From Phoronis australis (lineage: Eukaryota > Animalia > Phoronida): a stretch of DNA of 56,733 nucleotides. Made by a program: the position numbers and the translations under genes. Shown in pieces: positions 2,350 to 53,676 of this stretch (the stretch's first letter is position 1; each line of letters opens with the position of its first letter). The stretch lies in the NCBI GenBank assembly GCA_002633005.1, contig NMRA01000431.1, positions 63,768 through 120,500 of the forward strand, in the 5' to 3' direction. Below the pieces are notes generated by a model. That model did not search any database. It saw only the letters and a list, made by a program, of their open reading frames with translations, and had not been told where the DNA came from.

Positions 2350-2420
2350 GAATTTGAAGATGATCGTGATGCTGAAGATGCAGTGTATGAATTAAATGGA
2401 AGGCCCCTTCTGGGTGAAAG
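2350..2420 (+). CDS. SRSF4/5/6: SR splicing factor paralog A, coding exon 2 (RRM1 second half)
   Basis: cag|...|gtatgt; EFEDDRDAEDAVYELNGRPLLGER. The preceding exon lies upstream of the window. Confidence 0.96.
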
Positions 2421-5164
2421 GTATGTACTGGTCATAGGTTAGAACGAAAGACATTCTCAGCTAAGTCTAACAAAAATGTACTTTGCTTTGATTTAAATGA
2501 AGAGACAATAAACTGCAGGGCTCAACATTAACGGTGGTCTGACTGCCCAGGACAACCAAGTTGGTCCGGACAAGCTCACGGCTGAGCAGCTTGTCCGAAA
2601 GGACAAGTTAGTGAATTTTTGGAAACTATAGTAAATCTGAACGATCAGAACTTCTTTGTAGCAGTGATAACTCACTTGTTTAGCGATCAGTGTCAGTAAT
2701 ATGCGGTGCAAGGTGTTTAGATTATGCATGAGCTCATGACTGGACGCGATCCCTGGCACTTGCATTCGAATAGTTCTAGCCAGTGACGTGTTCTCATTTA
2801 AATACACGGCAGTATCTCACTTAATGTGGCAACGTTTTGATTTTAGCTAGGTACTAGCGTAGTTCCGAGTGCTTTGAACGCATGCCCGGTTCCCGATGAT
2901 TCGTCTCATTCAGAGGCCGCCTCAAACCAGTTTGCTCAATGCATTACCATACTCATCCGGGTTACGGGCCATGCTTGGCTTACTGCCTACCCCTAACTTT
3001 TCATGATCGAGACTTCCGTAAAAGTATATGTGCTTCTGTTAACGTTCGTCGCACAAAATTAAGATTCCAAAATGTGCGCAACTCGCTTAACTTTCTGCGA
3101 CAATCAATCAGTTTTAGCGGAACCGGGACCTTGCCTTACTATGGCAGTAAAATACCCGTATTCTCATGCCACTGAAGGAGACAATTGTTTCCTTTGGCTC
3201 ACGAGCAGAACTTGTGTCGGCATGTAATGATCACTGAGACAGCGCTTGTTGAATGTATTTCATTTGCTGCAGAAGAACCAACAAAACAGTACTTGACAGG
3301 GATATCACGTCCATGGCCAACCTTTCGGTGACATCCCCATGACAGTACACAAAACATAACCACCCTGAGCATTGAAATAAAAAAGGCCTGGTTCATTGTG
3401 ACAAGCCAACTTGTGTAGCTGTTCCCGTCTTGGTTAAACGCATGTTTTTAATGACTTTCACTTTTGACACCAAAATGGAAGCGCCCAACCAAAGGCAAGA
3501 GTGCAAAAAATCAATTTGTCATTAGCCCAAGGCGAACAAAAACTTATTTTTTTGAACTTCTGATTTGCTTGATGACTTTTTACAAGATGTGTTTTTGCTT
3601 CATTATTTTGGCAGCTGACCGAGTACCCTTACTAATACAATCGAAGTTAAGACTATCACACGCTCACAACCTCTGTACGTCTGGTAAAGTCACGGAACAT
3701 GAGAACGTCCTAATTAACTTTAAAAACCTGTCATTTCTCTATATGACTCCAATGAGGTCATTTTTCACAGTAGTTCACATTAAATTTAGACCCCCTATTT
3801 AATGCGACCTGGGTCGTGTTTTAATTTTAATTAGTTACCCGGGATCATTTTCAATACTGAAAACTAAGGCTTATCGGGGCACAACAAAAGTACGTCCCAA
3901 GTGAGCAGCACGTCTCCTGTATATAATGTATTTGCATTGAGCGACACAAATTAACCCTTTCACCTCCAAGTAGCTGTCGGCCATTGTGTCCCTGAACCCC
4001 AAGTAACTTTGCACAGATGGGCTGAACTGAGGTGCTTGTTTTCAAAATTCCACAGACAATCCATTTATCATTGAATTTCAAAGTGTGACACACCAAAATT
4101 TAGAGAACAGAATGAACTTTATCAACAATTTCACCAAAATTAAAAAGTCTCACTCTCTCAGGTGATGCAGGTAAGTAACACCTGTTTGTTTGTCAATTTG
4201 CCAATTCAATGTATTGTTTAAAGAAGAAAAATGATTATGAGTAACAGTGTCATCAATATTTTCCAGTACCATTTCTTAAGATACATTTTCGATCATATTT
4301 CACATCTATTAACATTTGAAGGCTATAAAGTGATTTGAATTCACCGATCGTTAAGTTCAACGATTCAAATTAGTCCACTTCCGGTTGTGACTTCGTTTGG
4401 GCGTTCAAATTAATTACCCTGACAATTTCACCGAATATTTCATCGGTATAGAAGTTTTGAAAGTACTCAACTTGCTTATCAGAACCATCATACACTCTAG
4501 AAGACTCCACATGTTCAGCAATATTATTTTAACTTTAAAATTTTGCACTTAAACCTGTAAATTAACAATTTGATATGCTTCCGATTTTGACGGACATCTG
4601 GTGGCGAATTAGAGCTTATTCAACTGGACAACAGGTGTCACTAAAAACTAGGTCACACCAGATCACATGTTAGTAGTATTTAATAAGTAGAATTGATACT
4701 AGAATTGACATTTTTATTATTAAAGGAACTTTAGTTTGATTTTCTGAGTCTGTCATGAATGCTTTGGAGGACTTCAGTTAAAAATTGGTAGGAAAGTCAA
4801 AAAGTAGGCCACACTCAGTTCAGTGTACATTTTTAAAACGTATATAAAAACACACTGACCATGTTTGGGAAAGAACAATGTTTACTTCTAACATGAAAGT
4901 TTGCATAGAGTTTGGAACTTTTGTTGTGGAGAACAGTGGGAACTGTTTCAAATATTGAAAGGGCTGTCAGGTTCTTCAATTTTCTGAAACTTTCTTGTAC
5001 AATGCTCAGTTATTGCTCAGTTACATTGCAACAGTGCTGTTCTGGTATGGATATTTTTGTGACTGATTTCGGTGGGATCTGTGATGTAGTTGTGATTTTG
5101 GTTTTCTAACAGAGAGAAAATAAGTTCTAGGAAAGCTTTCCAATAACTGCATTTGTTTTCTCAG

Positions 5165-5275
5165 GATAATTGTGGAAATGGCTCGTGGTAATCCTCGTGA
5201 CAGTCGTGGCGGTGGTGGATACAGAGATCGGTATGGACCCCCACGCAGGAGCCGGACAAGTGGTGGCCGTGACAG
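5165..5275 (+). CDS. SRSF4/5/6: SR paralog A, coding exon 3 (end of RRM1, G/R-rich linker)
   Basis: tcag|...|gtaat, phase 2-2; IIVEMARGNPRDSRGGGGYRDRYGPPRRSRTSGGRDR. Confidence 0.94.
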
Positions 5276-6500
5276 GTAATACTGATTAAAAATTAATCAG
5301 AGCTTCTGTTTTATGCACAGTTCTGTGTTGTGAATATGCTGACCATTCTGTGTTCTGTCTCTGGTTTTGATAAATTTACAGTTTCGCTTTCCGAACTTTT
5401 TTAATTATGTCTCTCTTGTTTTAGATTTCCCAGGTGTGTTGCCAAAGGTTCTGCTTAATTGTTAAAGTTTGGTTAATGTTACTGTGACGTTTTTATCTTG
5501 TGTTCATTAAATGGTTAAATGGCAAAAGGCTAAGGCTAACTGTTTCGCTGTTTTAGTTGACTCTCCACAAAGGTTTGCCTGCTAATTCAGTTGTCGTGTG
5601 TGTCTGGTTAACCATTTCCTGATGATGCATTGATGAGTGGCTGTTTTAGTGGCGCTGATGCAACTTAGTGAAATGTGTCTTGCAGCAATTCGCATAAGTC
5701 TCCTAGTGGCAGTTGACTGTTTTTTTTTTGTCTTAGGTACATCGGCAATCTAACCACCAGTCTTATTAAGTTTGATTCTAATTCTATATGCACACCTTTC
5801 AAAATCATTCCATAGAGCTACGTCAGTTCCCGTATTGAAACCAGGCAGTCGTCAGTTGTACAGTGTTAAGAACTGTCACATTAATTGTTTGTTGGTCCCT
5901 GTTACCACTCTGCATCGTTTATAGAAGGATATTAACGAGTCACCACAAAGACCAAATTGTCATGAGTCAGCCCAATTTCTGTCTAAAGCCAAGACATTTT
6001 CATGAATCAGTTTAGTCTGATTCATTTAAAATTTTCCTTTATAAATTTGACCCAGTAACTTTAAACTAAATTTTCTGCAAATTTTTGTTCATGATTTTAT
6101 GCAATATTTTGCCTGTAGTAGCACGTGTTTTGTGCTGCCTTGCAAAGGATGGGTATACTTACTGAAAAGAAGTTAGTTATAATCAGAAGAAATTCTTTAA
6201 TACTGAACACATGAAGGAGATCACTTGCTCGTGTTTTTGGGGGAGGGTTGGCAAATATGTAATTTGTAAGTAGTTTGACCAGTCTTCATAAAACAGCCTT
6301 GTCTAGAGTTAGAAGAAAAACTATAGGATCAAGATGATATGGGGGTTTAAGCTATCTTTCAATACTTAAATTGAGTTTCATTCACTTATGAATTGCTTAT
6401 ATATGTAACATAGCGTATTATTACTACCGTATATTCTCCATTATCCTGTCAAAGGGTTCTACTTCAAACCTTCGTCATATCTGTTTTATTTCCTTAGTAG

Positions 6501-6570
6501 GTATGGGCCACCAACGAGAACTGAGTTCCGCCTCGCAGTTCAGAACCTGTCGTCCAGAGTCAGCTGGCAG
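6501..6570 (+). CDS. SRSF4/5/6: SR paralog A, coding exon 4 (start of RRM2/RRMH)
   Basis: tagtag|...|gtagga; [23 protein letters not shown]. Confidence 0.97.
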
Positions 6571-8829
6571 GTAGGAACAACCTTTGTAGAATGAATGAAA
6601 GTTGGTTTAAGTCCCTGTTCTATTACACAAGATAGCATGCATTTGGTTCAAAATCAAATTCACTAAGGAATAATAGCTGTTGGTCAAGTCCACCAATCGC
6701 TTATTTAGCATTCCCATTGAGAATAAAGTGATAAATATCTTTGGTGTTTACAAATACAAACTTTACATTACAGTTGTTCCAAGTATTTTAAGATTATGTC
6801 TCCTTATCATCAAGTCTACATTTTGCCAAGTATCTTCCAACTATAGCATTAAACTCCATAAAAATATACATTTTCTGAAAATAAAAAGGCTGGAGAATTC
6901 TTATTTATGGCTGTAGCAAACTGCCAGTAATTTAGTCTCATAACAATGTGTTTTCAGAAAAAAGTATAGCAAAAGTCACTTCCATAGCATAACAAAAATT
7001 CTATCGGTCCCAAGTTTTATTGGCCTATTGTGCCATAGTAAAACATTTTAAAGCAATTCGTAGCAGCATTTGGGTGCGCGATGCATTAAGTGGACTATAT
7101 GAAAGTTTCATTTGAATTTGTTGAGGTATTTGTGAACCGTGATGTTTCTAAGTTAACAGAAGGCTCCCACTTAACCGTTACCACTTTATTCCGCTAAAAA
7201 ATAAAAGAATGATAGTTAAGGAAACTGATTAAGGTTACGTGTGCCTTCCTCATCTCCAGGTTGCTAAGTACTTAGTTACGTTAGTATCAAATAAAAGGCT
7301 GTCAAGGCCAATCTGTCCATGTCACTCAACCCTGTGCCATTGTCATGGTCACATAATCAGGCGTTTTTGGTAAAAAGTCCTTTGATCAGTGTTGATGTGA
7401 TTTTCTGTTAAAAGGTTCATGAAATACTCAATGTGTGTCTGAAATCTTCCATATTTTGAATGGATTCATTTCCTTCAACATTAAGCATTTTTCTAAGAAT
7501 AATCTCACTGATTTTAAACGAAAAGTAAAAGTAATGTACATCAAATGATGAATGTTCCAATTGAGTGGCTGTGCTTTTAGACATCTTAATGATGAATGCT
7601 CTAATTATACGTTATTGAGAGGCTGTGCTTCGGGGACAATGCAAACATGGTTCAAATCTTTGAACACTTTCTTGAGTTACGATGTTACCAAGTTTTGCCC
7701 AAGCAGCAATGCCTAAAAATTCAATTTTGTGTGTATTTCAATTCAGATTGTGTGATTTACTATAGTTGGCATCAATATTGGGTCAGCAGGTCACCTTCGA
7801 GTAGTTCACTGGCAGTTTTTGCAGCAGTTGTGTGAAGAAGCATCACACAATTTGGGGTAGGATTTGCATCAAATTGATGAAGTTGTGGTGAATTTTCTAA
7901 TCCAATGATGTAGACCTTTGGATGCTTTGGGAGTGGGCTTCAGCTGGATTTGAGTCTAGCATGCTGTCAGTTTATATGTGGACCTCATCTCCTGTTCAGG
8001 CAAAGGCTTTCCTTCACAGTTTGATTTTCACGACATCACAATGAAACATAAGGTAAATGACTTAGCACTCAATTTGGTGACTCACTAGTGCGACCTCAGA
8101 TTTTGTTTGGCGACCTGTAAAAAATCTCAGATCGCCACGAAGCCGTCGCCACATCCAAGCACTCGCTCAAAATACTGGTTGGTATCATTAATCAAAAATC
8201 ATGTTCGTCTGCCCTAGGAGATGGGCCTACATGGAGGATATTGGACTCGAAAGGGGGATTGGTCGTCAATGATCAGGAGGGTAGTTCCAAATTTTTCATT
8301 TGGGCAAAAAATAGTTGCAATTCTTGTGTGTTTTGCTCCATGTGCAGCCCATATTTTTAAAACGTTATTGTGAAATAGGGCTACACGTAAGCTTAATTAG
8401 ATTTCTAATTTTTAGGTCAAATTTGTGTGTTACACACACACCTTTTTGAACGTGTACTGAATATTATGCAGACAATATGTTGCAAAATAATCTCGTACCT
8501 GGGACTTCGCTTGGGGTATTGAGTTTTGAAAATAACATGACTTAATGTGAGCTCTTTCATCGAATAACCTTTCTTAAAAAAATTTATAAACTTAGTAATT
8601 TAGTCTGATCCAAAAGTCAGTGACAGAATCCCTCAATATGACTCCTCATTCTGGGATATGTGCATGATGAAACTAGTAATTAAAACATTGGTGCAGGCTA
8701 TTGACATGCTTGATCATGGAGCGCAATTTTGATAAACCCTAAACCAAATCAAAGTTCAGCATACAGTGTATAGCATAATTTTTCTCATTTTTACTTGGCA
8801 TGCTTATTAATCGATAGCCATGATTTAAG

Positions 8830-9184
8830 CTTGCAGCACCATCTTGAGACAGGTGAGGTTGGCTATAGGGGTCAAGGGTACAGACCTTCTTGGCGCGCTC
8901 ACGCGAGAGGTGGCCTTTCTGGGAAACCCTTCAGGATCCTCTCTCACACTCTTTGACGAGGGGTGCCTCGTTCAAGGTGGCTGGCACTCTGCCGGTGTGC
9001 ACGCTAGGCCTTGCCGTGCCTCTTGTGATAATCGTCATCTTGTCTGGCTCGTTATGGGTCTGGCCCAGTCATCTTGTGATCTAAATTGACCGGTCTTCCT
9101 TACTGCCTGTGCTCTGAGGTTCTGGCTAAAGAGGCTTACTCGATCCAATCTGGGCTTAGCACTAGGTCTCTTGACATAACTGAG
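8830..9184 (+). other. Putative poison (PTC-containing) cassette exon of SR paralog A; 5' boundary uncertain (AGs end at 8817, 8829, 8836, 8852)
   Basis: Intronic block conserved with 36297-36666 in paralog B; donor GAG|GTAAAG; in-frame stop from every candidate acceptor. Confidence 0.75.
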
Positions 9185-9471
9185 GTAAAGTGAAAGTGAT
9201 TTAAAACCCAGCTATATTTTCATTACATAGTTGATTAGCATGAGTCGATTAAAATCACAAGTCAAATGTCGGAGTTGAAAAACAGGCTTGTACAATGAGG
9301 CAAGGTATTTCTGGGCTGATGACGAAGTGTGAGAGGCCTGGAACCACGCTAACGCTGATGAGATGACGAGATGACTGCTATATCATGTCTCTATGTTTGA
9401 ACAGTCTCTCTCTCTGCAATGATGTTTTGTTTGTGTGTGTTCCTTTCATTAGCCTTTCGTACACATTTCAG

Positions 9472-9545
9472 GACCTCAAAGACTACATGCGCCAGGCTGG
9501 AGACGTGACATACGCCGATGCTCATAAAAACCGAACTGGTGAGGG
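9472..9545 (+). CDS. SRSF4/5/6: SR paralog A, coding exon 5 (RRM2)
   Basis: ttcag|...|gtaagt; [25 protein letters not shown], completing the SWQDLKD signature. Confidence 0.97.
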
Positions 9546-10818
9546 GTAAGTGTCCTGACTGGAGATGCACATCACAAAAGCATAGCCCTCTGGTTACGAC
9601 CATGGTTGACTTAGCATTGCTTATTTGTCAAACATTCTATATTTTGTGAAACTTCATAGCAGTGAGTTTTCCTGTAGACAGAGCATTGTTAATTAATTAG
9701 CTGGTAACCTGTTAATTCTTTAGACTATTTCTTGAAACATAATCGCAATCAACCCTGTGATAGGTAATTTACAATGAAATAGTGACGCCGATTCAATTAT
9801 TTTGCGGAAATTTACGATTGACAACATGGTTCTCATGATTTTCTGCCATAAATTGTTATTGTCTGACATTTACTTGGTGTAATCACAACAGCTTGTGATT
9901 GCTCCAAAGCACAGCCATGCTTTTATTCGAAAGTGACCGAAATGTGAATTCCGGCATAGAAATTCCCCACTACTCTGTCTTTTGACAGCCAAATCTTCTT
10001 GAGTAAGGACTGTCCAATTTCTTTAGTTTAGGGATACCCCTTCACGCGCCAGACCATATTCCTCTTACTATGCACCTTGAAAGTGACGTTTAGCATCACT
10101 TACGGGCATGACTTCAAATTTGGGCCCCACCAATTCAAAAGGAAAGTTGAGTCCTGGTTTCTAGTTTTGTTTTAGTGACTGCTCACAACACCAAAATAAA
10201 TACTTTTGTTGCTGTAGAGATTCATGTAGAGGTGATGCGTTGGAGCGCGACAAATTTGAAAATTTAAGTTCACTGAGTGCTAAGCGTTGCATTGCATATT
10301 GAAGCTACTCAAAATAGCTTGAATTATTGTATAAAATGATGTGTACATTTACTTAAAACTTGTTAGACATGAGGGCTGTTCTTGTGAATTGAAGTATAGT
10401 TAAATAATTGAACTTGAAATTATTTTTAACATTTCCTGTTATAAGTGTCTGTTACACTATGCTTGAGTGCATTAGGGTTTACGCAGGTGAGTTTCTAGTT
10501 GATGTTCACAGTCGATGACCTTAAGGTTTGAGGTTCAAGCAAAATATCTAAATTTAAAGTTGAGACTCAGAAGTTATAGTTTTATGCTGGGGTCACCAAG
10601 TGCATTAAGTCGCAATATGAACCATTACATGTGAGACATTCATATTTTTGATTAAGGTGCAATATGCATTTGGGATTTTTGCTCTATTGTCTAGTGCTGC
10701 TGTTCCTGGTAATAGGCAAAATGTTGTGATGTGAAGATGTAAGGAAAGATTAGCAGTGGTACTATTCATTAAAAGCAGGTGTTGTGTGCATTTGGTGATC
10801 ATGTTTCTTGTCTTTTAG

Positions 10819-10935
10819 TGTTGTGGAATTTGCTACGTACCATGATATGACAAACGCCTTGAAGAAACTGCATGACACTGATATTAGTGGCAAGAAGATC
10901 AAACTGGTGGAGGATAACCCAAAACGAAGAAGAAG
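10819..10935 (+). CDS. SRSF4/5/6: SR paralog A, coding exon 6 (end of RRM2)
   Basis: tttag|...|gtaaat; VVEFATYHDMTNALKKLHDTDISGKKIKLVEDNPKRRR. Confidence 0.95.
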
Positions 10936-11029
10936 GTAAATGACCTGATGTCTCTTGCTTGTCATATCAAATGACTGCGTAGTCAGTTCTGTATTCACCT
11001 GCCTCCGCTCAGTTACTCATATGTTCAAA

Positions 11030-12686
11030 GCGTCCGTCTGTCCGATATCCGTCCGTCTGGCAGCGGCTGCTCTCTCCAAATTACCTTGACATGTGTTCAT
11101 GAAATTTTGCACGTGTTCCTTCCATGGATGGGACAGCATGAGTGAACTTTCAAACGGATCCGACTACCGATGTGCCCCTAGTGGCAATTTTAGTTTTTGA
11201 CGTTCACCTCTGTATCTTCAAAAGTCCTGAACAGAGCTTCATAAAATTTGGTGTATAGGCACCTATCAGTGAGATGACACTACCATCCTGTTTTCAGATG
11301 AATTTGATGTAGTTTGCGCCACCTAGTGGCCATTTTTACTGCATCCACCCCTCTATCAACCAAACTGCTCCAAGGATGATTGTGAAAATTAGCATGTATG
11401 TTTTTACTATGAAGTGGACGGCTGGCGATGATTTTCCAATGACTTCGACTACTGTGGCGCCTCCTAGTGGCAGTTTTTTTGCGCCTATGGCTGTATCCCC
11501 TAAACCGTTTGCAGGATCTTTACTAAATTTAGAAGTGTATTTATATGATGTTAACAACGGAGGATGACGACTTTCAGACGGATCTGGCTACTGGTGTGCC
11601 ACCTAGTGGCAATTGTATTTTTTTACATTTACCTCAGTCTGTATGTTCAAGTGTCCTCAAGGTATTTTCATAAAATGTGGCATACTGTCATCTCTTAATG
11701 AGATGACGCTATCTCTCCGTTTTTCAGATGGATTCGACCTATTTTGCACCACCTAGTGGCGTCCACTCCTCAATCAACCAAACCGCTTTCAAGATAATTG
11801 TGAAAATTTGCATGTATGTTTTTACTATGAAGTGGACGGCTGACGACGATTTTCCAACGAGTTTGACAATAGTGGCGCCTCCTAGTGGCATTTTTTGCGC
11901 TCATGGCTGTATATTAAACCATTTGCAGGATCTTTACTTGATTTAGCAACTGTATTTAAATGATGTTGATAATGGATGACGACGACTTTCGGATGGCTCT
12001 GACTAGTGGTGTGCCCCTAGTGGCAATTTTAGTTTTTTACGTTTACCAGCCTGCATCTTCAAAGATCCTCAACAGATTTTCATAAAATTTTGAGTATTGG
12101 CATCTATTGGTGAGATGACGCCATCATCCTGTTTTTGGACGTAACCTAGGTATTTGCGCCACCTGGTGGCCTTTTTTTGCTGTTTTCAAATCTTGTTTTT
12201 GGCGTCCACCCCTCGATCAACCAAATCATTCTAGGGATGGTTTTGAAAATTGGCGTATATGTTTTCCATGTAAAAAGGACATTTGATGATGGCGACTGAC
12301 TGCTGTGGCGCCTCCTAGTCGTAGTTTTGTTTTGTTTTGTTTTGTTTTGTTTTGTTTTGCACTCATAGCTGTATCTCCAAAACCCACTGCAGGATCCTTA
12401 TTAATTTTAGTAAGTGAATTTATATGAAGATAATAGACAACGACTTTCGGGCGGATGGCACGGACGCTGTGCCCACAAGTGGCAATTTCATTTTGTTCCG
12501 TTTTTCTTTGTTTCTCTGAAGTTCCTTGACAGATTTTTATGAAATGTGGCATGTTCCCTTTTTTGGATGGATTGTAAGTTTTTGTGCCATCTAGTGGCCA
12601 TTTTTATGATATAAATAAATAACCCCAAAAGCACACCATTTGCGATGCATTCGTGGGCGCATTTCAACATTTCGCGTTGCTCTTGT
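11030..12686 (+). mobile_element. Helentron-associated (HINE/DINE-1-like) element with internal ~140-bp tandem subrepeats, 5'-truncated
   Basis: CGTC microsatellite at the 5' side; repeated GYGCCHCCTAGTGGC units; 3' subTIR GTGGGCGCAT, short CAAC..GTTG hairpin and CTCTTGT end; close relative at 37566-39298. Confidence 0.75.
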
Positions 12687-12922
12687 AATGAATTCTTTGC
12701 AATCATCATGCCAACAAATTACCGCTGCTCTACTTTGGAACATTCCAGTGATTCGACTCCAGGATTTAAAATTGGGTCAACTAAAGCTAGCTATCCTACT
12801 CTTGCAAAAAGTGATTTTTTGTTTGCTCTTGCTGGAGCGTTACGATTATGATTTTCCTACAACAGGAGATAAGTTGAGGTTTAATGCTCAAGATTCACCT
12901 GTTAATCATTTATTCATTGCAG

Positions 12923-13244
12923 TCGAAGTCGATCACACAGTCGCAGCCGTAGTCGAAGCCGCAATCGTTCCAGGAGTAGGTCTCGCCGTCGCAGTCGTTC
13001 CAGGAGTCGATCAAAGAGCCGATCTAAGAGTCGGTCTAAGAGCAGGTCAAAGAGCAAGTCCAGAGGTCGCTCCAAGTCAAAGTCTCGCAGCCGCTCCAGG
13101 TCACGCAGCCGCAGCAAGTCTCGCAGCAAGAGCCGCAGCAGGTCAAAAAGCAAGAGCCCAGCAAAAGATACTGCTGCTGAAAATGGCGAGCAGCCAATGG
13201 AGCAGAAGGACTCGGCTGGAGACAAGGAGAAGGACGACGAGTAA
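12923..13244 (+). CDS. SRSF4/5/6: SR paralog A, last coding exon (RS domain plus acidic tail)
   Basis: ttgcag|t CGA AGT CGA...; RSRSHSRSRSRSRNRSRSRSRRRSRSRSRSKSRSKS...KSPAKDTAAENGEQPMEQKDSAGDKEKDDE then TAA. Confidence 0.96.
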
Positions 13245-28062: not shown

Positions 28063-28194
28063 ATGAGTAGAGGTGGTACTCGTGTTTACATAGGCCATCT
28101 GTCTAACAGTGTCAGAGAAGAAGACGTGCAGCGTTTCTTTCGAGATTATGGCAGAATAAATGAAGTCAATTTGAAAAATGGCTATGGTTTTGTG
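28063..28194 (+). CDS. SRSF4/5/6: SR paralog B, coding exon 1 (RRM1 first half)
   Basis: cag|ATG...|gtaagt; MSRGGTRVYIGHLSNSVREEDVQRFFRDYGRINEVNLKNGYGFV with RNP2 and RNP1. Confidence 0.97.
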
Positions 28195-28351
28195 GTAAGT
28201 AACTCACATTTTAATGTTGCCTACTGGTGTGGATTTAGCTAAGGGTTGAGTGCTGATATGTAATACCAATTAATGATTATCCATGTTCAAGTTTGGTATT
28301 ACAGTCTAACATTGCGACAATGTTAGAATTCATTGAAAAATAAAAAAGGGC

Positions 28352-30584
28352 GGTTATTGTTTACAATCCGACTCCAATAACATATATACTTGATGTTAAT
28401 ATTTTCCAAGCTCTCTCACCTTGGTGATCTTAGTGATTCCAAAAATGTATTACTCGTACTCATTAGGCTCGTCTTATTCATGCATTCACTGTTTTTACAA
28501 GGCGTTCATTTGCGGCATCCCATCTCGAGTGACCACCATTATAAAACTGCGACACCTCTCGGCAGGAATGATAACTGTAATGATCACGCAAGTGTCAGAC
28601 GACCCCAAAATTGGTTAGTATATTGAAGATACTGCGTGGCATATTAGGGAAACTCTGAGTGAAAAACAATAAGTCACTTATAAAGGATTGCCTCTTCAAA
28701 ACCTCTTTAGAAAAAACACGAGAATGCGTGTTCTTGCGCCCAAATATCGTTCTCGAAAACACTTGACATCTCGGACATGTGTGTCGTCTCAGAGACAAAA
28801 ACTGTTTCAAACAAGTGGAATTAGGTAATAAGATAATTACTATCACTGGCAGACTAAAATACGCGAACACAGAAATACATTCTGATTGAACTACCTTCAC
28901 TTAACTGCTGAAAGGTGTCGCACTTTTAAAAATGGCTGCCTCACTAAATTCGCATTGCAAATGAACACCTAGGAAAAACTCAAAAACTGTTAATACCGTA
29001 TTCACCCTAATAAGCGCCCATGACGCTTAGAAAAATTTGCTTCAGGAATTCGCTTATTATAGCCCAAAAGTGGTTGAAACCTGGTTTCTGAAACAGGTGA
29101 AATCGTAAGCTAGAATTCATCAAATTTACGCTCTGTGACGCATCTGTGACGGAGTTTCTACAAAATTGCTGTGCATTTCTATCAAACTTTGTTGTTAAAT
29201 TACGATCATCTTTCAGAAAATTCCCGGTAGTGTGAAAACTCACCAACTGATGCGTCGCTGCCTGCCGATTGCCGATAGGTCAACTTGAATTCTTGAGTAA
29301 AAATATAGTTTCGACTCAACAAATTACCTAAAGTCCTTAAGTTTTCAAAATAACGTCCCTAGGATTTTTAAGTTCCTGTGGAGTTTGGATTAATTGCATA
29401 TTAAGTCCAAATTTGGGCTAGATTGTACTCTGCAACACGAGAAAAATCTCTGGATGAACACACATGTTGTTGTCACGTGATGTTTGTTTTGAAGTTCATC
29501 TGCGTGTTGTGTGAGTGAACGAGTGTGTGCGTGTCATCAGAGTTAATTTGCCAGAGTAAACGCGATATAAAGATCTAGATGTGCATTATAACTAAGGAAA
29601 TTAACACAAGCAGTAAAGCAGAACATGTTTTATTTAGCACTTGTTGATCTGATCTGCTAAAAAACGTTGGAGAATTGTCTCGGTAAGGCTGATGTCATTG
29701 AGTTGCCGGGTGACTGGATGCTTGACAGTCTAACAGTTATTTTTGGGGAGATTCGGTGGAGGGGGGTATAAGGGTGCGGAAGTGTTCACTATCAGTGGGT
29801 CATTTTAACTTTAAAAACAACAATTACGACAAATTTAATAGTTCCCCCTTAAAAATAACACAAGCGTTTTCTACGGTATTGGAAACTTTCGGAAATAAGT
29901 GCCAGTATTTATTTCTTGCCTATGCTATGCTACCTGTTTCATGACGGTAGTTCCTGAAGACTAATCTTCGATGACAAGTACTTGAATGTAGCACGCGCTT
30001 CCTGGCCACGTGAACAAAGGTAAAGTTGTTATTAGTCTTCGATTCGCAGTTTTCTTGTGTAGAAAGAAATTTGGATTCCTGTTGAGGGAGAAGATCTGTA
30101 CGTACGGGAAAGATACAATACAATCCCTGTGACGAGTACACTGCGTCTGTTCTGAAAGGCCAGACCATAATAGGACACGTCTCTCGCAAGATCAGCAAAA
30201 CTTGCGTTCTTTTTGAAGCACGGCGGAAGTTTGAAGTGAATAGTCATGGCTATATGCTGACATGGCGGCGAGGCTCGTGGTCTACAAATTTCGTGCACAA
30301 TGATTTTTTCACGACTGTCGGATCTTATTGATAAATTGAAGACTTTACTGTAGAATTTTAGAACTGTAGGTAAAGCATTTTTCGCATGTACATGGTGTTC
30401 ATGGTCTGGGCGCTTATTTTAGAACGTCTACGGGCGCTTATAGGGGCACGGGCGCTTATTAGGGCGAATACAGTAAGAAGCGACCATTCAGTACAAGTAA
30501 TACATTTTTGGAATAACTGACTTGAGGATTCAGAAAATAGTATCAAGTATGTACGTTAATGGAGTCTGATTGTAAACAATAGCC
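28352..30584. mobile_element. Merlin-like non-autonomous element hosting a mariner-type MITE
   Basis: ~40-bp TIR GGTTATTGTTTACAATCCGACTCCA / TGGAGTCTGATTGTAAACAATAGCC; GG..CC ends; perfect 8-bp TSD AAAAGGGC. Confidence 0.75.
28996..30473. mobile_element. Tc1/mariner(pogo)-like non-autonomous element
   Basis: TA|CCGTATTCACCCTAATAAGCGCCC...GGGCGCTTATTAGGGCGAATACAG|TA; homologous copies at 30930-31270 and 55391-56498. Confidence 0.85.
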
Positions 30585-30929
30585 AAAAGGGCATTTTGGC
30601 AATTACTTTTCTCTGAACTTGTTGAGATCTTACGGTTTGGTATTCCTGGAATTTTGCCACAATATTGCCACAAGTTGACATATCTCTTGTTAGTGTTGTG
30701 TTTCATGTCTTCTGCTAGTGTTGTGTTTCATGTCTTCTGCTAGTGTTGTTACTGTTTGCAGTGTTCTTCATCACCTATTTTGACTCGACGCGGTAACGAG
30801 TTTGAATTTTGCAGCGTCAAGTTTGGGGAAGCATCAAGTTTAAAAATTTTGGCTGGCTTGGTACTTCATCCCTCAGCATCTAATCAGAGCCTGATTTTAC
30901 CAACAGTAAACATAGTTCACTTTACAGTA

Positions 30930-31270
30930 CCGTATTGGCCATAATAAGTCGCCTGGGGTGGTTAGTAGAATTCGTTTCAGGGGGAGGGGGAGGCACTTAT
31001 TGAATATTGTAACCCAAGGTGGTTGAAACCCGGTCTCCAAAACGGATGAAATCGGAAGCTAGGATTCATCAAATTTACGGTCCGGGATGTATCTGTAGCC
31101 TATGACAGACTTTCTACAAAACGGTGACGCATTGCTATCAAATTACGTTGTTAACTTACGATCATTTTAGAGAAAATTATACTGAAATCCCAGGGCGAAA
31201 ACTCGCCCTGCCTTGCGGTCGTCGACAGGGCAGCTTGAATTAAAATATAGTTTCGACTTGACTAATTACC
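30930..31270. mobile_element. Partial copy of the CCGTA mariner-like element
   Basis: TACCGTATTGGCCATAATAAG start; colinear with 28996-29330. Confidence 0.7.
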
Positions 31271-31835
31271 CATCTAATTTTAGTTATGAATTTTCTAAGA
31301 TTTGCATTTTCTATAACCTCTTAAGTATTGCGCAATGCAGAAATCTTAAGACGTAAGCATACATACTTAGTTTACCATTGCAATCGACCTTAGTTTCTCA
31401 TTATTGGAAAGCACATTCCTTCAACCTTTGTTTAAATTCAGACAGAAAAGTTGCTTACCACTCACTGAACCCAAACATAGCCACATCCATATTTACATAA
31501 CAGATGTCTTTGCATGTGAGTCGTTCTACCATGTTCGTCACATACTCTCAACAGTTCGTATGTTTCTTTTGGAAGCCTGTCACTGGACATTTTCTACCAC
31601 TAGTTGATACATCTTATAAAGTAAATGACATGCAATTCTCCAAGAACTGCACTGTTTGAAGTATTACTACTGATTCTTAATATTTGTTAAAAGGTTGCCT
31701 GTACATTCTCAATGGCTTTGTGAGCCCTAATACAGTATGGGTGCTATTGTTTTATTAAAACTTGTTGCATAGTCCATATCAATGATACTAGGTTGGTACT
31801 TTAAATCTGTCTTAAGTCTGCTGTATTGCATTCAG

Positions 31836-31906
31836 GAATTTGATGATGACAGAGATGCAGATGATGCAGTTGATGATCTGAATGGCAAATCTTTACTTGG
31901 AGAGAG
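31836..31906 (+). CDS. SRSF4/5/6: SR paralog B, coding exon 2
   Basis: ttcag|...|gtgagt; EFDDDRDADDAVDDLNGKSLLGER; 71 nt as in paralog A. Confidence 0.97.
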
Positions 31907-32374
31907 GTGAGTTGTACTCTACACGTCAGGAAAGTGTTGCGTAATAGTATAAAGTAGCCATGGTTACCCAACTGTGCACAAATTGGTGCCTGATGTTATT
32001 TTGAAATTTTATGTGTAGACTGAAATTTTTTTATTCGGGTTTGGCATCGTTTTCATGTAAGCAATCAAACTGACTTTCTCAAGTTTTAAGACTTAAACTA
32101 CGAGACTTTCTGTCAAATCATTGTGTTTGTGGAAGTCGTGATATGACCATGTTGCAAAAATGTTAACACCAGTTGCTGTATAAAATGGCTTTAAAATTAT
32201 CTATGGTATTTGATGAATTTCTTTAAAACTATCTATGCTATATGATGACTTTCTTTCGGGGCTGAGACATTGTGTTGAAAATCTTTCCCAACATAGTCTG
32301 ATAGCATTTTGATTACACAACCTTTACCAGCTTGCATCTGGCATGCTGTTAAACCACCTTTGGTTCTTTCACAG

Positions 32375-32488
32375 AGTTGTTCTGGAGCACGCCCGTGGCC
32401 AGCCTCGGGGTTCAGACCGTGACCGCTATAGAGATTTTCGAGATCGGGACTATGGTCGAGGCAGTCGCCGGCCATCTTGGATGGACAA
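32375..32488 (+). CDS. SRSF4/5/6: SR paralog B, coding exon 3
   Basis: acag|...|gtaagt; VVLEHARGQPRGSDRDRYRDFRDRDYGRGSRRPSWMDK. Confidence 0.95.
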
Positions 32489-33256
32489 GTAAGTCAATTT
32501 TCTAAATGTTAGCTAGTGAACTGAAATGTTCATGACACTTCTGCCATTTTCAAGTCAGTTAGCCCTTACCATTTCTGCCCACACCTATTGACACGCGTGA
32601 TGAACATCTTTCGGGGCTGATTGTTACTGCTGTAAACCAATCCCAATATGTTCTGATATGTCTTATGTGTTGTGATCTCCATTTAATCCAAACTACATTG
32701 CAGTGTTCACACCTCCTTACATTGGGTCCAGGGAACCTACCTTCCACAATGTTTCGAATCCATTACAAGTTCTTGGGATTTGTGAAAACAGGAATCATTA
32801 AAGCAGCACAAAATGTTGCACATTTTATATTAAAAATGAGACGAATCTGCTGCTACTTAGTAGAAAATATGAGAGCATTACCAAGAAATGAAACGGATGG
32901 TTTTTAGTCCTGGTTCTTTAAACTCGTCTTCCATCACAACTTTTGATGCAGACCACTGACTGTTATAAAATTACTCTCTAAGCTGTTCCTCAGTAAAAAT
33001 AGATGGAATTCTCAGTCCTGGAAAGAACTGACATTTCGTTATTGCTCGAGATCAAACTTGACAAGTTGACGTGTCATTTTATTTGTCGAGCATGGTCTGT
33101 AACCATACTGAACCGTCAGTTCTTTCTGTGATCGAAAATCACTTGTAATCTGAAGAACAAATTGGTACTAATTTTATAGCAGTAAGTGGTCTAAATCAAA
33201 AGTAAGTTTCTTTGGATAAAGGTTGGCTTATAGACACTTGAAGCTTTATTTTTAAC

Positions 33257-33570
33257 TATTTAAGGTAAGTGTGTAAGTTGGTGTGCTCATTATATCAATA
33301 TGCATGTTTATCTAGTTATTTAGGGTAAGTGTGTGTAAGTTGGTGTGCTCATTAGATCAATATGCATGTTTATCTAGTTATTTAGGGTAAGTGTGTGTAA
33401 GTTAGTGTGCTCATTATATCAATATGCATGTTTATCTAGTTATTTAGGGTAAGTGTGTGTAAGTTAGTGTGCTCATTATATCAATATGCATGTTTATCTA
33501 GTTATTTAGGGTAAGTGTGTGTAAGTTGGTGTGCTCATTAGATCAATATGCATGTTTATCGTTATTTAGG
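33257..33570 (+). repeat. Minisatellite, 62-bp unit, ~5 copies
   Basis: Unit TATTTAGGGTAAGTGTGTGTAAGTTGGTGTGCTCATTAGATCAATATGCATGTTTATCTAGT. Confidence 0.95.
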
Positions 33571-33711
33571 TCAAATGACGCAGCAGCCTCAGGCGATCTC
33601 TGGGCATGGTTACATTTTGTTCACTCAATGAGATTACTGTGTCTTCTGGTACGGCCGACCAATGTGTTTTTACTAACTTTTTGTTTTAGTTGGTTTCCGT
33701 CTTTGTTTCAG

Positions 33712-33781
33712 GTACGGCCCTCCTACCAGAACAGATTATCGTGTTGTTGTAAAGAATCTGTCTTCCCGTGTCAGCTGGCAG
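33712..33781 (+). CDS. SRSF4/5/6: SR paralog B, coding exon 4
   Basis: TACTAAC branch site at 33671; tttcag|...|gtatgt; [23 protein letters not shown]. Confidence 0.97.
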
Positions 33782-34021
33782 GTATGTCCAACATTTTTTT
33801 CGAAGGTTTTGTTGTTTCTCCCAGGAATTCTCTGAAATGTCTACAATTAACTGTCTGTTAAAAATTTAGATTGAAGCTGAAAACAATGCGTAATTGTGAT
33901 TTTATCTCACAATTTCCATTTAGCAACACGTGGAATAGTAAGGTGAAACCTTGGTCGATACGTAAAGTTCTACAAATAACAGAATTTGAGGAAGTAGTGG
34001 TGGCTGATCATGTGTGACTGA

Positions 34022-34112
34022 TGGCTGTACCAGGTGGTGCAGGCAAGCATATTTGGCTGTACCAGGTGGTGCAGGCAAGCATATTTGGCTGTACCAGGTG
34101 GTGCAGGCAAGC
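34022..34112 (+). repeat. Tandem repeat, 32-bp unit, ~2.8 copies
   Basis: GGCTGTACCAGGTGGTGCAGGCAAGCATATTT starting at 34023, 34055 and 34087. Confidence 0.9.
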
Positions 34113-34529
34113 GTAATTGGCTTCATGAAAAGGTCATTTTACTGTCTATGTGATTAGGCATGATGCGTTTATATAAAAGTAGAATTACCTCCTCATCATC
34201 AGTAGTCATGTTGCTACTTCTAAGTCTCCCATTGAACCTCTTTCATCAAATTTTTGTCTATGGCAGTAAGTAGTAAACCTTTCCACAATATTCTCATAAC
34301 TGGTTTTTTGCTTGTTTTGAAAACCCTCAACTCGTAAATCTATTAATTCAGTATAGATGAGGTGAAGTCTAAGCTCGTGCACCATTAAGGTACTTCAGTG
34401 ATCCTCATTTGCATGGTTATGGTAAATTTGTCATTACTCAACTTTTATGATGCAGCATCTTCCTTTGAATTCTCTTGCCTACAATTTAAACCATAAGTCA
34501 AAGGAACCTGGGATCCTTACTAACTTACA

Positions 34530-36030
34530 TTTTTATGCGCCCACATATATATATGTGGTCGCATATTGTCGTCACTTTATCCAGGCGTCCTTGTGTCTTG
34601 CTATATCTCAAAAACTTCTGATTGTATTTTTAAAAAATTGAGCACAAGGGTGTTGGGCATCACTAGAACTTCTCAATTTGCCCCAACCCCTGGGGTCAGG
34701 GTGCGAGGCTTTTTCAGTATTTTTGGGGAAGAGCATTTCTGGATGATAATTAGGGAACGGGTTGACAGATTTCAATGAAACTTGACACGAAGGTGTTTGA
34801 TATCAATGCAGCAGCACTATTAAATTCTCAGGCAGATTCAACCACTATAGCACCTCCTGGTGGCCATTTTGTTCTCGATGAAGGGCTTTTCGAGTGTTGT
34901 TTTTGGGAAAAGAGTGTTTCTGAATGATATCTAGGAAATTGATGGGCGTATTAATTGAACATTGAAACTTGACACAAAGGTATATTGTGAGATTGCAGCA
35001 GCACCATTTGTTTTTTCAACCGGATTTGATTACTGCAGTACCTCCTAGTGGTCATTTTGTGCAAGAGTGTTTCCGAATGATGTCTAGAGAATTTATTGAT
35101 GGATGTCAATCAAACTTGGCACAAAGGTGTGTGATATCGATGACTTGGCACCATTAGATTTTTGGCAGATTCGAGTAAGGTAGCACCTCCTAGTGGCCAT
35201 TTTGTTATCAGCAAGTGTTGTTCGGCAGAAGAACTTTACCAGATGATACTTAGAGAACTGATGAGTATATTTCATTGAAACTTGACACAGGTATGTGGTG
35301 AGATTGCGGTGGCACCATTTGTTTTTTCGGGAGGACTCGACAACTACAGTGCCCCTTATTGGCCTTTTTGTGTGAGAACGTTTCCGTGTGATACATAGTG
35401 AACTGAATGAAGGATTTCAATGAAAGTTGACAAAGGAGGTTTGTGATGAGAATGCAGCTGCACCATTAAATGTTCAGTCGGATTCGACTAATGTAGCACC
35501 TCCTAGTGGCCATTTTGTTTTCGTCATGGTCTTTTCAAGTGCTGTTTGAGTAAGAGCATTTCCGAATGATATTTGGAGAATCAATCGATAGATTTCATTG
35601 AAACTTGACATAGAGGTATATTATGAGACTGCGCGGCAGTATTTGATTTTTGGCCAGATTCGACAACTGCAGTGACTTAGTGGCTATTTGGTGTGAGAGG
35701 TTTGTGATGTTTTCAACATGGGCTTTGAAGTGTTTGGGGAATAGTGTTTCAGAATGATATCTAAAGAACCAATTAACAAATTTGATTAAACTTGACTCAG
35801 AGGTTTATTATGAGACTGCTTTTGAAGTGTTATTTCAGGGAAGATTATATCTATAGAACTGTTTGGCAGATTTCAATGAAACTATACTCAGAAGCATATG
35901 AGTACAGTGCGCTGGCACCATTTGATATTTGGGCTGCTTTGACTACTTCAGCACCTCCTGGTGGCCCTTAAAAACATATCGTCTGCGATGCTCCGTGGGT
36001 GCATGTCAACGCTCCAGCGTTGCTCTTGTT
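34530..36030 (+). mobile_element. Full-length HINE/Helentron-associated element (second subfamily)
   Basis: 5' TTTTTATGCGCCCACATAT..ATATGTGGTCGCAT palindrome; tandem subunits with GCACCTCCTAGTGGCC; 3' GTGGGTGCAT, CAACGCT..AGCGTTG hairpin and CTCTTGTT. Confidence 0.78.
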
Positions 36031-36296
36031 TGAAATGACGAGTAATTAAAACTGCTCCATTTTGTAACATCTATTTGTGAAAAGCAAACATTTCTCAGTA
36101 CTACAGGACAACATAATTGAACTGTTGTGCAAGACATTCTGTGGCTAACATCGAAATTTAGCTGAAATAGCTCAGGTTGTATTTGATGTATAACTGGTTA
36201 GCCACAGTGTATTTTTCTCCTAAAACAAAGTTCCTTAAAGTATGTTAGTAACCTTTGCTATGTGACTGCTATTTAATTGTGAGCAATGCCTTTAAG

Positions 36297-36666
36297 CTTG
36301 CAGTACCGCCATGACAGGTGATGTATGGTGCGAGAATGGCAGCACAGACTTAGCCACTGATGTTCTCTATCATTCTTACCCTCGAGATGTACCCCATTAG
36401 ACGATGATCCAAGGTGCCAAGCACCACCTAGATGATTGATGTGATCTCTAGACGCCATCCTCACTATACTGTGTGTGTGTGGACCATCGTCTTGCCATGC
36501 TTGTGACTTGGCCGTGGTCCATTTGTGAGGGATGAGTTCCCTTAGCTGACGAAGCCTGGCATTGATCTAAATTACACTGATGCTCTCTCATCCACTCTGA
36601 TGTTCTTGCCAGAGGGTGCTTACTCAATCCAATCTGGGGCATATGTCTAGATCATGAAACAAGGAG
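36297..36666 (+). other. Putative poison cassette exon of SR paralog B; 5' boundary uncertain (AGs end at 36283, 36296, 36303, 36317)
   Basis: Homologous to 8830-9184; donor GAG|GTAAAG; early in-frame stops from all candidate acceptors. Confidence 0.75.
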
Positions 36667-36939
36667 GTAAAGTGAAAATGATTAAAACCAGCAATTTGGT
36701 TGAATTCAGTTTTTGAGTTGCATGGTTTATGTGTTCTAAGAACAAAGGCAGTCTAGGAATGAACATAACTTGTTTACAGTTCACAGTAAAACTGAAGTCA
36801 ACGCCAGTGCCAGGATGGGTGATGTTGGGCCCTCATTTAACAACATGGCAGTCAGATTATCAACATGTTGTGGGTGTGTGTGTGTGTACGCTGGGATATT
36901 ACCATTAATCACCTGTCTCTACAAAATATTCCATTACAG

Positions 36940-37013
36940 GATCTGAAAGACTATATGAGGCAAGCTGGTGAAGTGACCTATGCTGATGCTCACAAACACA
37001 CAAAGGGCGAAGG
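36940..37013 (+). CDS. SRSF4/5/6: SR paralog B, coding exon 5
   Basis: tacag|...|gtgaga; [25 protein letters not shown]. Confidence 0.97.
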
Positions 37014-37565
37014 GTGAGACTTTGTGTTCATTGTTGGAATGTGAAGAAAGAAATTTGATAGTTTACCATTTGTCTGCCCTAATAAGGGAAGTATGTTTAC
37101 TATCAAAATTGTAATTCCAGGTTTTGCATAAAGCGAAGTTTTTACTTTGGTTTTCTTTTTATTTTATGTTTCTCTATGATTTGTGTTTGGGTAAACATGA
37201 AAGTTCAGCGTAATGTCCACCTGGATAATTTCCCAATTTTCACTCGTAACTGCCCATGTTTGGCTTACTGCCTACCCCCAATTGATATAATCCAGGTTTA
37301 TTTGAAAGTGTCCGTGTTTTTTGCAAATGTCCATCACGTGCAAATTTTTGCTCCCAAAATATACGATGCTCACGTATCTTAAAGTAACAGTCAAGAGATT
37401 GAGCAATACCCTGCCTTGGAGTTACACTTGTATGGTGCTTCTAAAAAGATTCCATGTATGCTTTGCCTGTGACTTTATTGGCAATAATGATTGGATGAGC
37501 ATGGGAATGTTTTGAAACTCTGTGTTGAGACTTAAAGGTTGGCAAGTTAACTGGCAAGATGTAGC

Positions 37566-39298: not shown

Positions 39299-39750
39299 TG
39301 GAAATCCTTTTTACTTTGTTCAAGCGTGAAAATAAATCTGTATAATTTGATGCCTGCACACGAGTCTGGCGTGTTTACTTGAATTGACTGTTCCAGAAAG
39401 TGTCCACTTCTGACTTAGAAAACTTAATTTTTAAATATACTTCATTGCAAGCTTTAATGCCCACCCTCAAGTAGCCTAGGCGTTAACCCAGTTGAGTGTG
39501 GTATATCCATAAGATTTGGTAACACTCAATGCAAGCTGAGCCAGTTGCAACTATATATACAACACTCAGATGGAACAGGGTCTACTGCTGTTTGAATTGT
39601 GATCTTGTCACAAATTCAAATTTTGATGTCTCGCTTTTGTGACAGTTTTATTTCAACATGGTTGAAGTTGACTATAATGAATGTTGATGCCTAAATATAA
39701 CCCACGGGTTACTTGTGAGCTATCATTCATTAATTTAAATTGCTTTTCAG

Positions 39751-39876
39751 AGTAGTGGAATTTGCCTCTCACTCTGATATGAAAGACGCCATCCGTAAGC
39801 TGGATGGCACAAGAATACAGGATCGCAAGATTGAAGTAAGGGAAGATAAATCCAATCATAGCAGCAGGAGAAGGGG
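39751..39876 (+). CDS. SRSF4/5/6: SR paralog B, coding exon 6
   Basis: ttttcag|...|gtgagc; VVEFASHSDMKDAIRKLDGTRIQDRKIEVREDKSNHSSRRR. Confidence 0.95.
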
Positions 39877-40660: not shown

Positions 40661-40919
40661 TGATTCAAGGTCTCGATCGCGCAGCCGATCTAGAAGCCGT
40701 TCTCGCAGGCGTAGCCGCAGCCGATCCAAGAGCAAGTCAAGGTCACGCAGTCGTGGCTCAAAGTCACACTCGAAGTCTCGCAGTCGTTCTCGCTCTCGCA
40801 GCAAAAGTGGCGGTAGGTCTGAGAGCAGAAGTAAGTCACCTGAGAAGAGGAAATCTGCTAAAAATGGTGATGAGTCTTCAGGCAGTCGGAATGAGGAGCG
40901 AGAGAAAAGTGCAGAGTGA
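40661..40919 (+). CDS. SRSF4/5/6: SR paralog B, last coding exon (RS domain)
   Basis: ttgtag|t GAT TCA AGG; DSRSRSRSRSRSRSRRRSRSRSKSKSRS...KSPEKRKSAKNGDESSGSRNEEREKSAE then TGA. Confidence 0.96.
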
Positions 40920-53612: not shown

Positions 53613-53676
53613 TAGGCAATGACCATCGCCTCTGTTGGCCCGAAGCAGAGGCGATGGTCATTGCCTAACAACCCTA
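53613..53676. mobile_element. 64-bp collapsed derivative of the AcademH-like element
   Basis: 55-bp hairpin made of the termini of 21573-22461 plus ACAACCCTA, flanked by 9-bp ACGGCACTG repeats. Confidence 0.8.

What the first reader, a model, noticed from the sequence alone, without database searches (positions are those of the whole stretch)
8801..9212. Hidden conserved poison exon in SR paralog A, shared with paralog B
Seen: by eye, the paralogs' introns share only transposons and this block, which sits in the same intron (SWQ|DLKD). Matching segments, A vs B: TGCTTATTAATCGATAGCCATGATTTAAGCTTGCAGCACC..GACAGGTGA vs TGCTATTTAATTGTGAGCAATGCCTTTAAGCTTGCAGTACC..GACAGGTGA; TGATCTAAATT in both; CTCTGAGGTTCTGGCT..GCTTACTCGATCCAATCTGGG vs CTCTGATGTTCTTGCC..GCTTACTCAATCCAATCTGGG; GAG|GTAAAGTGAAAGTGATTTAAAACCCAGC vs GAG|GTAAAGTGAAAATGATTAAAACCAGC. 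Every candidate acceptor yields an in-frame stop (from TTAAG|: LAAPS* in A, LAVPP* in B). Known: unproductive splicing coupled to NMD at this intron of SRSF5-type genes is an ancient autoregulatory mechanism. Inference: a functional AS-NMD cassette under purifying selection that the ORF track cannot show.
Basis: partly seen in the sequence, partly recalled or inferred. Interest (0 to 1): 0.85.

Follow-up and report, generated by a model that had tools for sequence, protein, structure and literature searches.

The report
Poison exon in twin SR genes
Two neighbouring copies of an SRSF5-type splicing-factor gene keep a matching hidden stop-codon exon in the same intron; RNA reads show it spliced in at both ends in one copy and only at its far end in the other, where the intron is often left in, so it is likely the already known brake that would divert surplus messages away from making protein.

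Summary
Real, expressed, and a known kind. The block is a noncoding exon in the SWQ|DLKD intron of two tandem SRSF5/B52-type genes: A 8830-9184 (355 nt; acceptor inferred from B), B 36297-36666 (370 nt). Its two ends are 76-78% identical between paralogs, against 69% for coding exons and 32% at fourfold sites; 0 of 200 shuffles reach either end's score. The middle is not significantly conserved. Stranded RNA reads show both junctions in B (13 and 37 reads, 36 skipping). In A they show only the predicted 9184->9472 joint (24 against 631 skipping); 6570->8830 is below the listing floor, and the whole intron is covered at 13-19x against 0.2-2.5x for neighbouring introns. The stop sits at codon 6 in both, over 500 nt before the last junction. 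NMD and autoregulation are inferred, not shown. The event, with flanking retention and survival in paralogs, is published for animals from anemone to human (PMC4379411). One earlier scan note on yeast NPL3 cites the same paper; none reported this exon. What is new: one more species, short candidate cis-elements, strongly unequal use by the paralogs, and a sample-specific 9-nt microexon in A.

The parts
8830..9184 (+). Poison exon of gene A, 355 nt, stop at codon 6 (8845-8847). Donor 9184 shown by reads; acceptor 8830 inferred from homology with B
   Evidence: GC 54% vs 36-40% in flanks
8801..8859 (+). Conserved acceptor-side block: upstream TTAAT (branch-point-like, inferred), AAG| acceptor with poor pyrimidine tract, the stop, and a conserved internal donor-like CAG|GTGA at 8852 with no listed joints
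9112..9212 (+). Conserved donor-side block, including the used donor GAG|GTAAAG and about 25 nt of conserved intron behind it
6571..9471 (+). Host intron of gene A (SWQ|DLKD), covered on the sense strand on both sides of the exon
2350..13244 (+). Gene A coding exons 2350-2420, 5165-5275, 6501-6570, 9472-9545, 10819-10935, 12923-13244; first coding exon not found in the window
   Evidence: joints from 5275 to 10819 joint table, 2420|5165 and 10935|12923 from its loose ends
5425..5433 (+). 9-nt in-frame microexon of gene A (adds Arg-Phe-Pro to the inter-RRM linker), sample-specific
36297..36666 (+). Poison exon of gene B, 370 nt, stop at codon 6 (36312-36314); both junctions shown by reads
33782..36939 (+). 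Host intron of gene B (SWQ|DLKD), covered on the sense strand along its length
28063..40919 (+). Gene B coding exons 28063-28194, 31836-31906, 32375-32488, 33712-33781, 36940-37013, 39751-39876, 40670-40919 (281 aa; two RRMs plus RS domain)
   Evidence: only the joints around the poison intron and 37013|39751 were checked on reads

Best explanation
The block is a noncoding, stop-carrying cassette exon in the SWQ|DLKD intron of two tandem SRSF5-type splicing-factor genes, spliced in at both ends in gene B and at its donor end in gene A, and it likely works as the ancient SRSF5 unproductive-splicing switch. Shown: three RNA fates exist at this intron. The exon is skipped (full SR protein), the exon is included (stop at codon 6, 528 nt in A and 552 nt in B before the last junction), or one or both flanking intron halves are left in (stops at 6592 and 33833). 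Shown: only the exon's ends are conserved between paralogs whose fourfold sites look saturated. Inferred from the mammalian gene: included transcripts would be destroyed by NMD, intron-holding transcripts would be held in the nucleus, and SR protein level, from the gene itself or its paralog, would set the choice through the conserved end blocks, giving negative feedback. Inferred: the exon predates the duplication and was kept in both copies by purifying selection.
For: B: joints 33781->36297 in 2, 5, 6 reads, 36666->36940 in 11, 15, 11, skip in 14, 7, 15, all GT..AG. A: 9184->9472 in 4, 4, 16 reads plus a contig from a second study; skip 278, 194, 159. Mean depth of A's intron upstream of the exon is 13.5, 15.6, 19.3, against 0.6-2.5 and 0.2-1.0 for the neighbouring introns, on the same strand as the exons. 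End blocks 45/59 and 79/101 identical, against coding 205/297 and fourfold sites 10/31. Run X1 differs from the window at 15 of 552 positions upstream of A's block and 2 of 382 within it (p=0.013). 5 of 16 public homologues with the RRM2 SWQ motif leave the normal sequence exactly after SWQ; 4 of these were looked up and are an ant SRp55, two wasp models and a cuttlefish SRSF4/5/6. Same event published for vertebrates, lancelet, urchin, fly, worm and anemone (PMC4379411). Mouse Srsf5's poison exon is flanked by detained introns and its NMD isoform is stabilised by Upf1 knockdown (PMC4281565).
Against: No 6570->8830 joint is listed for A in any of 4 runs. At B's acceptor:donor ratio about 1.4, 1.4 and 5.6 reads were expected, and the chance that all three stay under the floor of 3 is about 0.06, so inclusion in A is neither shown nor excluded. 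B's upstream joint is flagged 'between: not known' by the tool. B shows no drop in polymorphism over the exon (4 of 307 vs 5 of 249, p=0.52; 9 of 10 differences were listed). B's included form is about as abundant as the skipped form without NMD inhibition, which is high for an efficient NMD target. The three raw-read runs are one study, 18-19% of each was read, and library selection is unspecified. No NMD or protein-dose experiment was available.
Confidence: 0.82

Rival explanations
1. In gene A the block acts almost only as a decoy exon: its splice sites engage the intron's ends without splicing, so the intron is held and the RNA stays in the nucleus, with NMD playing little part.
For: A shows whole-intron coverage at 7 times or more that of the upstream neighbour intron and no listed upstream joint. 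A 971-nt contig runs unspliced from 8249 through the acceptor to 9184 and then joins 9472. A spare donor-like site is conserved inside the exon, and multiple competing sites are a proposed decoy feature (PMC6097662). Mouse Srsf5 intron-detaining transcripts are not NMD substrates.
Against: The same acceptor is used in B (13 reads). Its absence in A is compatible with sampling plus decay (p about 0.06). The stop is kept at the same codon in both genes. Retention beside an included poison exon is the normal picture in published SRSF5 genes (Table S1).
Confidence: 0.12
2. The exon makes a functional truncated protein (RRM1 plus a piece of RRM2) or an early-polyadenylated RNA, not a decay substrate.
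For: Single early-polyadenylated mRNAs were seen in frog and zebrafish SRSF5. B's included form is abundant. AATAAA/ATTAAA hexamers occur in both introns.
Against: The exon is spliced onward to the next coding exon in both genes. No pile of molecule ends is listed within either exon (table 6). Only 5 residues are added before the stop. No protein-level conservation of the exon body.
Confidence: 0.04
3. The shared block is a dispersed repeat or a structured small RNA sitting in both introns, and the splicing is incidental.
For: The introns are rich in repeats. No genome was held, so copy number could not be counted.
Against: Each diagnostic motif occurs exactly twice in the 56.7 kb, once per gene. 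Conservation peaks on the two splice sites that reads use. No foreign reads or loose ends are listed on the block, unlike true repeats at 8082-8139 and 34528-34574 (both loose-end tables were cut short). No Rfam match at gathering score. Folding z-scores are +0.45 to +0.58 for 4 of 4 segments.
Confidence: 0.02

Closest known systems
SRSF5 (SRp40)/B52 intron-5 poison cassette exon with retention of the flanking introns (Lareau and Brenner 2015, PMC4379411; read parts 1-3 of 5, abstract to methods, and the text of the supplement PDF, figures not visible)
   Same: Same subfamily. Stop-carrying alternative exon inside an RRM2 intron, retention on either side, noncoding conservation. Table S1 lists the event as kept in paralogs of chicken, frog, zebrafish and anemone (NV1, 2, 4, 6), and tandem worm rsp-1/rsp-2 with retention.
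   Different: Another species (unnamed here). A tandem pair with saturated-looking fourfold sites leaves a short footprint of candidate elements, which that paper says were not dissected. Use differs sharply between copies (poison donor 3.7% in A, 51% in B). No NMD test here.
Mouse Srsf5 NMD-switch exon flanked by detained introns (Boutz et al. 2015, PMC4281565; passages only)
   Same: One intron far more abundant than its neighbours, around a poison exon of an SRSF5-type gene.
   Different: Nuclear location, Upf1 insensitivity, Clk response and Srsf4 binding were shown there and are untested here.
Decoy exons of SF3B1, OGT and ARGLU1 (Parra et al. 2018, PMC6097662; passages only)
   Same: Conserved cryptic noncoding exon in a retained intron over 1 kb, rare junction reads, extra splice-site-like motifs.
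   Different: In B the exon is included at a high rate. A causal role in retention is untested.
Paralog cross-regulation by poison exons (SRSF3 on SRSF5, PTBP1/2, hnRNP L/LL, hnRNP D/DL; review PMC11062102, passages only)
   Same: Paralogous RNA-binding proteins with unproductive exons; unequal use of the exon in A and B would fit.
   Different: Cross-regulation is only a hypothesis here.

Membership tests
SRSF4/5/6 subfamily of SR proteins | Two RRMs, the second with the SWQDLKD motif, then an RS domain | tested here: met
   Spliced translations. Pfam RRM_1 on 5 of 9 exon peptides, 2 above cut-off. Best PDB match is human SRSF6 for 3 of 3 exons tried. Of 10 close public proteins looked up, 7 are named SRSF5b, SRp55, SRSF6 or SFRS4_5_6, 2 hypothetical, 1 unnamed.
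SRSF5/B52-type gene (not SRSF4/6-type) | Intron at SWQ|DLKD shared with other invertebrate members | tested here: met
   Phase-0 intron there in both genes. 5 of 16 SWQ-bearing homologues break at exactly that point, including ant SRp55 with an insert between SWQ and DLKD.
SRSF5/B52-type gene (not SRSF4/6-type) | [quoted passage not shown] | tested here: inconclusive
   It counts as intron 5 in B if there is one untranslated first exon (the ATG directly follows an acceptor), matching 'between exons 5 and 6' (PMC10796970). Human exon borders were not fetched and the paper's figure is not held; that human intron 5 lies at SWQ|DLKD is recalled. The protein tree did not resolve orthology.
Poison cassette exon (AS-NMD) | Both junctions used in RNA (gene B) | tested here: met
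   13 upstream and 37 downstream reads across 3 of 3 raw-read runs.
Poison cassette exon (AS-NMD) | Both junctions used in RNA (gene A) | tested here: inconclusive
   Donor joint in 4 of 4 runs; acceptor joint listed in 0 of 4, with a floor of 3 reads from 2 starts and 1%.
Poison cassette exon (AS-NMD) | In-frame stop more than about 50 nt before the last exon junction | tested here: met
   528 nt in A and 552 nt in B; rule as stated in PMC4281565.
Poison cassette exon (AS-NMD) | Included isoform stabilised when NMD is blocked | not testable with these tools
   None of the 4 runs offered is described as NMD-inhibited.
Poison cassette exon (AS-NMD) | Inclusion responds to the level of the SR protein | not testable with these tools
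   No perturbation data.
Poison cassette exon (AS-NMD) | Noncoding sequence under constraint | tested here: met
   Ends 76-78% identical vs 32% at fourfold sites. Polymorphism lower in A (p=0.013), not in B (p=0.52).
Detained intron / decoy exon | Intron much more abundant than its neighbours | tested here: met
   A: 13.5-19.3x vs 0.2-2.5x. B: covered throughout, zero depth in the first 100 nt of the next intron.
Detained intron / decoy exon | Nuclear, polyadenylated, NMD-insensitive; retention lost when the exon's splice sites are mutated | not testable with these tools
   Needs fractionation and minigenes.

The most novel reading that the evidence does not exclude
The two tandem genes are cross-wired through one shared cis-code: abundant protein from A holds B about half unproductive by forcing its poison exon in, while in A the same block works mainly as a detention decoy. 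The few short motifs that survive between the paralogs (weak AAG acceptor, internal decoy donor, donor-side 100-nt block) are the minimal, bilaterian-wide sensor of the SRSF5 switch, hinted at by a cuttlefish gene model whose post-SWQ insert best matches this same block.
Probability: 0.2. Interest if true: 0.6.

Novelty: new member of a known kind. Interest (0 to 1): 0.33.

Why it matters
It confirms from raw reads, in another animal, one of the oldest known regulated splicing events, and fixes two unannotatable exons. The practical value is the footprint. In mammals the exon is conserved along its length, so the working elements are hidden. Here two diverged paralogs keep only about 160 nt, which gives a short list to mutate, and the pair uses the exon very unequally in the same samples. 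PMC4379411 states that the sequence requirements had not been dissected as of 2015. It would not surprise a specialist.

Tried and rejected
Whole-genome copy count: no genome held. Metagenome scan with a gapped donor-block pattern: 42 loci, 0 of 42 with BLASTN similarity to the block or TBLASTN similarity to the proteins. Conserved RNA structure, including a hairpin hiding the donor: 4 of 4 segments fold no better than shuffles, consensus only -8.2 kcal/mol; rejected. Rfam: 0 matches at gathering score. Hidden coding: longest stop-free runs 27-97 aa across 12 frames with no shared long frame; TBLASTX gives only 6-11 aa pieces; rejected. Word-index protein search with B's first coding exon: 2 candidates, none passing. 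Tree of 16 rows: A and B pair at 81/81, below the tool's bar, backbone open, bootstrap not settled; no age or phylum can be read from it. Deep nucleotide homology through back-translated post-SWQ inserts of 4 public models (the fifth, 5 residues, was left out): the cuttlefish insert's best match falls in the donor-side block in both A (ends 9128) and B (ends 36618), but 5 of 60 and 47 of 60 intron shuffles score as well (8 and 57 of 300 exon-only); one wasp insert matched B's exon middle at 5 of 300; a lead only. The run search listed no indexed holder on record as RNA; the raw-read runs were laid directly. Paper searches that found no report of a paralog-shared exon in this setting: (0 papers for poison exon + SRSF5 + amphioxus); for the microexon (1 paper, on mouse gonads, listing seen only). 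PMC3173450 passages held nothing on this intron. Earlier-findings look-ups by place and by sequence were empty.

Full report
Setting. The window holds two same-strand SR genes. Joining exons by coordinates gives open frames with two RRMs, SWQ|DLKD and an RS tail: gene A 2350-13244, whose first coding exon is not in the window, and gene B 28063-40919. Exon peptides match Pfam RRM_1 (5 of 9), and human SRSF6 is the best solved match for 3 of 3 exons tried. The proteins are 58% identical over 142 RRM-region residues. Over four alignable exons they share 205 of 297 nt, 69 of 97 residues and 10 of 31 fourfold sites, which looks saturated. No genome is held for the window.

Observation. The best local match between the two whole SWQ|DLKD introns is A 9112-9208 with B 36595-36689 (score 69; shuffles 26.5 +/- 2.5, 0 of 200). 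The next is A 8801-8859 with B 36267-36324 (38; 0 of 200). The shared 11-mer is weak alone (32 of 1000). Four other intron pairs and the 3' UTRs show nothing, and the exon middles are not significantly alike (41 of 500). The end blocks are 45/59 and 79/101 identical, above the coding exons. Each diagnostic motif occurs twice in the window, once per gene, with 0-0.02 expected. The exons are GC-rich (54% and 48%) against 36-40% in the flanks. Of 21 AGs scanned in A, 19 give a stop inside the exon; two late ones would not.

RNA. Four runs were offered: one contig set, and three stranded raw-read runs from one other study, 18-19% of each read. In B the reads give 33781->36297 (2, 5, 6), 36666->36940 (11, 15, 11) and the skip (14, 7, 15), all GT..AG. 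In A the reads give 9184->9472 (4, 4, 16, plus a contig) and the skip (278, 194, 159), but no joint from 6570 into the block is listed. At B's ratio, the chance that all three runs stay under the 3-read floor is about 0.06. A's intron is covered on the exon strand along its whole length: mean 13.5, 15.6 and 19.3 upstream of the exon (one bin includes a repeat), against 0.6-2.5 and 0.2-1.0 for the neighbouring introns. A 971-nt contig runs unspliced from 8249 to 9184 and then joins 9472. B's intron is covered too, and a B contig holds the downstream half unspliced. The poison donor supplies 24 of 655 joints into the next exon in A and 37 of 73 in B (p about 6e-26).

Constraint within the species. 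The contig run differs from the window at 15 of 552 positions upstream of A's block and 2 of 382 inside it (p=0.013), both in the unconserved middle. B shows no such drop (p=0.52; 9 of 10 differences listed). Conservation is in sequence, not fold: z-scores +0.45 to +0.58, and no Rfam match.

Mechanism. Shown: skipping, inclusion (B; donor end only in A) and retention, each unproductive form carrying an early stop. Inclusion puts it at codon 6, 528 or 552 nt before the last junction; retention puts it at 6592 or 33833. Inferred: NMD of the included form, nuclear holding of the retained form, and control by SR protein level through the conserved ends. The exon's sites look weak (AAG acceptor, pyrimidine fraction 0.53-0.59 against 0.53-0.82 for 13 coding acceptors; donor 6 of 9 matches to the recalled consensus), and a donor-like CAG|GTGA is conserved just after the stop with no listed use. 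That suits a regulated or decoy exon but does not prove one.

What is known. [quoted passage not shown] Boutz 2015 (PMC4281565; passages) shows mouse Srsf5's poison exon flanked by detained introns that escape NMD. Parra 2018 (PMC6097662; passages) gives the decoy model. PMC10796970 (passages) places the exon between exons 5 and 6. PMC11062102 (passages) lists paralog cross-regulation as common. Independently, 5 of 16 public homologues with the SWQ motif leave the normal sequence right after it; named ones are ant, wasp and cuttlefish models. That human intron 5 lies at SWQ|DLKD is recalled, not fetched. The protein tree pairs A and B weakly (81/81) and resolves nothing deeper.

Verdict. It is a new member of a known kind. 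What remains of interest is the short paralog footprint, the unequal use in A and B, an unproven hint that the donor-side block extends to a mollusc, and a sample-specific microexon in A. Interest 0.33.

Noticed in passing
window 5425-5433 (+): 9-nt in-frame microexon in gene A, AG|...|GT bounded, adding Arg-Phe-Pro between the RRMs. Included in 72 and 59 reads in runs X2 and X3 (121 and 63 skip it) and in 0 of 156 in X4. One paper search found nothing relevant. Gene B was not checked on reads at this intron.
   Followed up: partly
window 6495-6500 (+): Tandem TAGTAG acceptor in gene A: both 6498 and 6501 are used, with or without the microexon, adding or omitting a Ser.
   Followed up: partly
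window 8850-8858 and 36315-36323 (+): Donor-like CAG|GTGA conserved just after the stop in both exons; no joint from it is listed in any run.
   Followed up: partly
window 51594-52889 (-): Uninterrupted 431-aa frame with a Glyco_transf_15 match (PF01793, E 1.2e-19), a family I recall mainly from fungi. A homologue search scored 7999 candidates and none passed 1e-5. Origin unexamined.
   Followed up: partly
window 11086-12686, 38161-39297, 34720-36035 (+): Long internally repetitive elements. The first two are 73-77% alike and sit in non-homologous introns of A and B; the third shares only short matches with them.
   Followed up: no
window 48981-49568 (+) and 26210-26635 (-): Broken retroelement remains: RVT_1 (E 1e-15) and an integrase core match below cut-off (E 1.2e-5).
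   Followed up: no
window 21573-22461, 53613-53668, 14826-17287, about 24797-24845: Inverted-repeat pairs suggesting small DNA transposons, and an assembly gap of about 50 N between the two genes.
   Followed up: no
proteins P0005, P0018, P0021, P0040, P0096: Public gene models that run off or insert sequence exactly after SWQ; probably poison exons or retained introns annotated as coding.
   Followed up: partly
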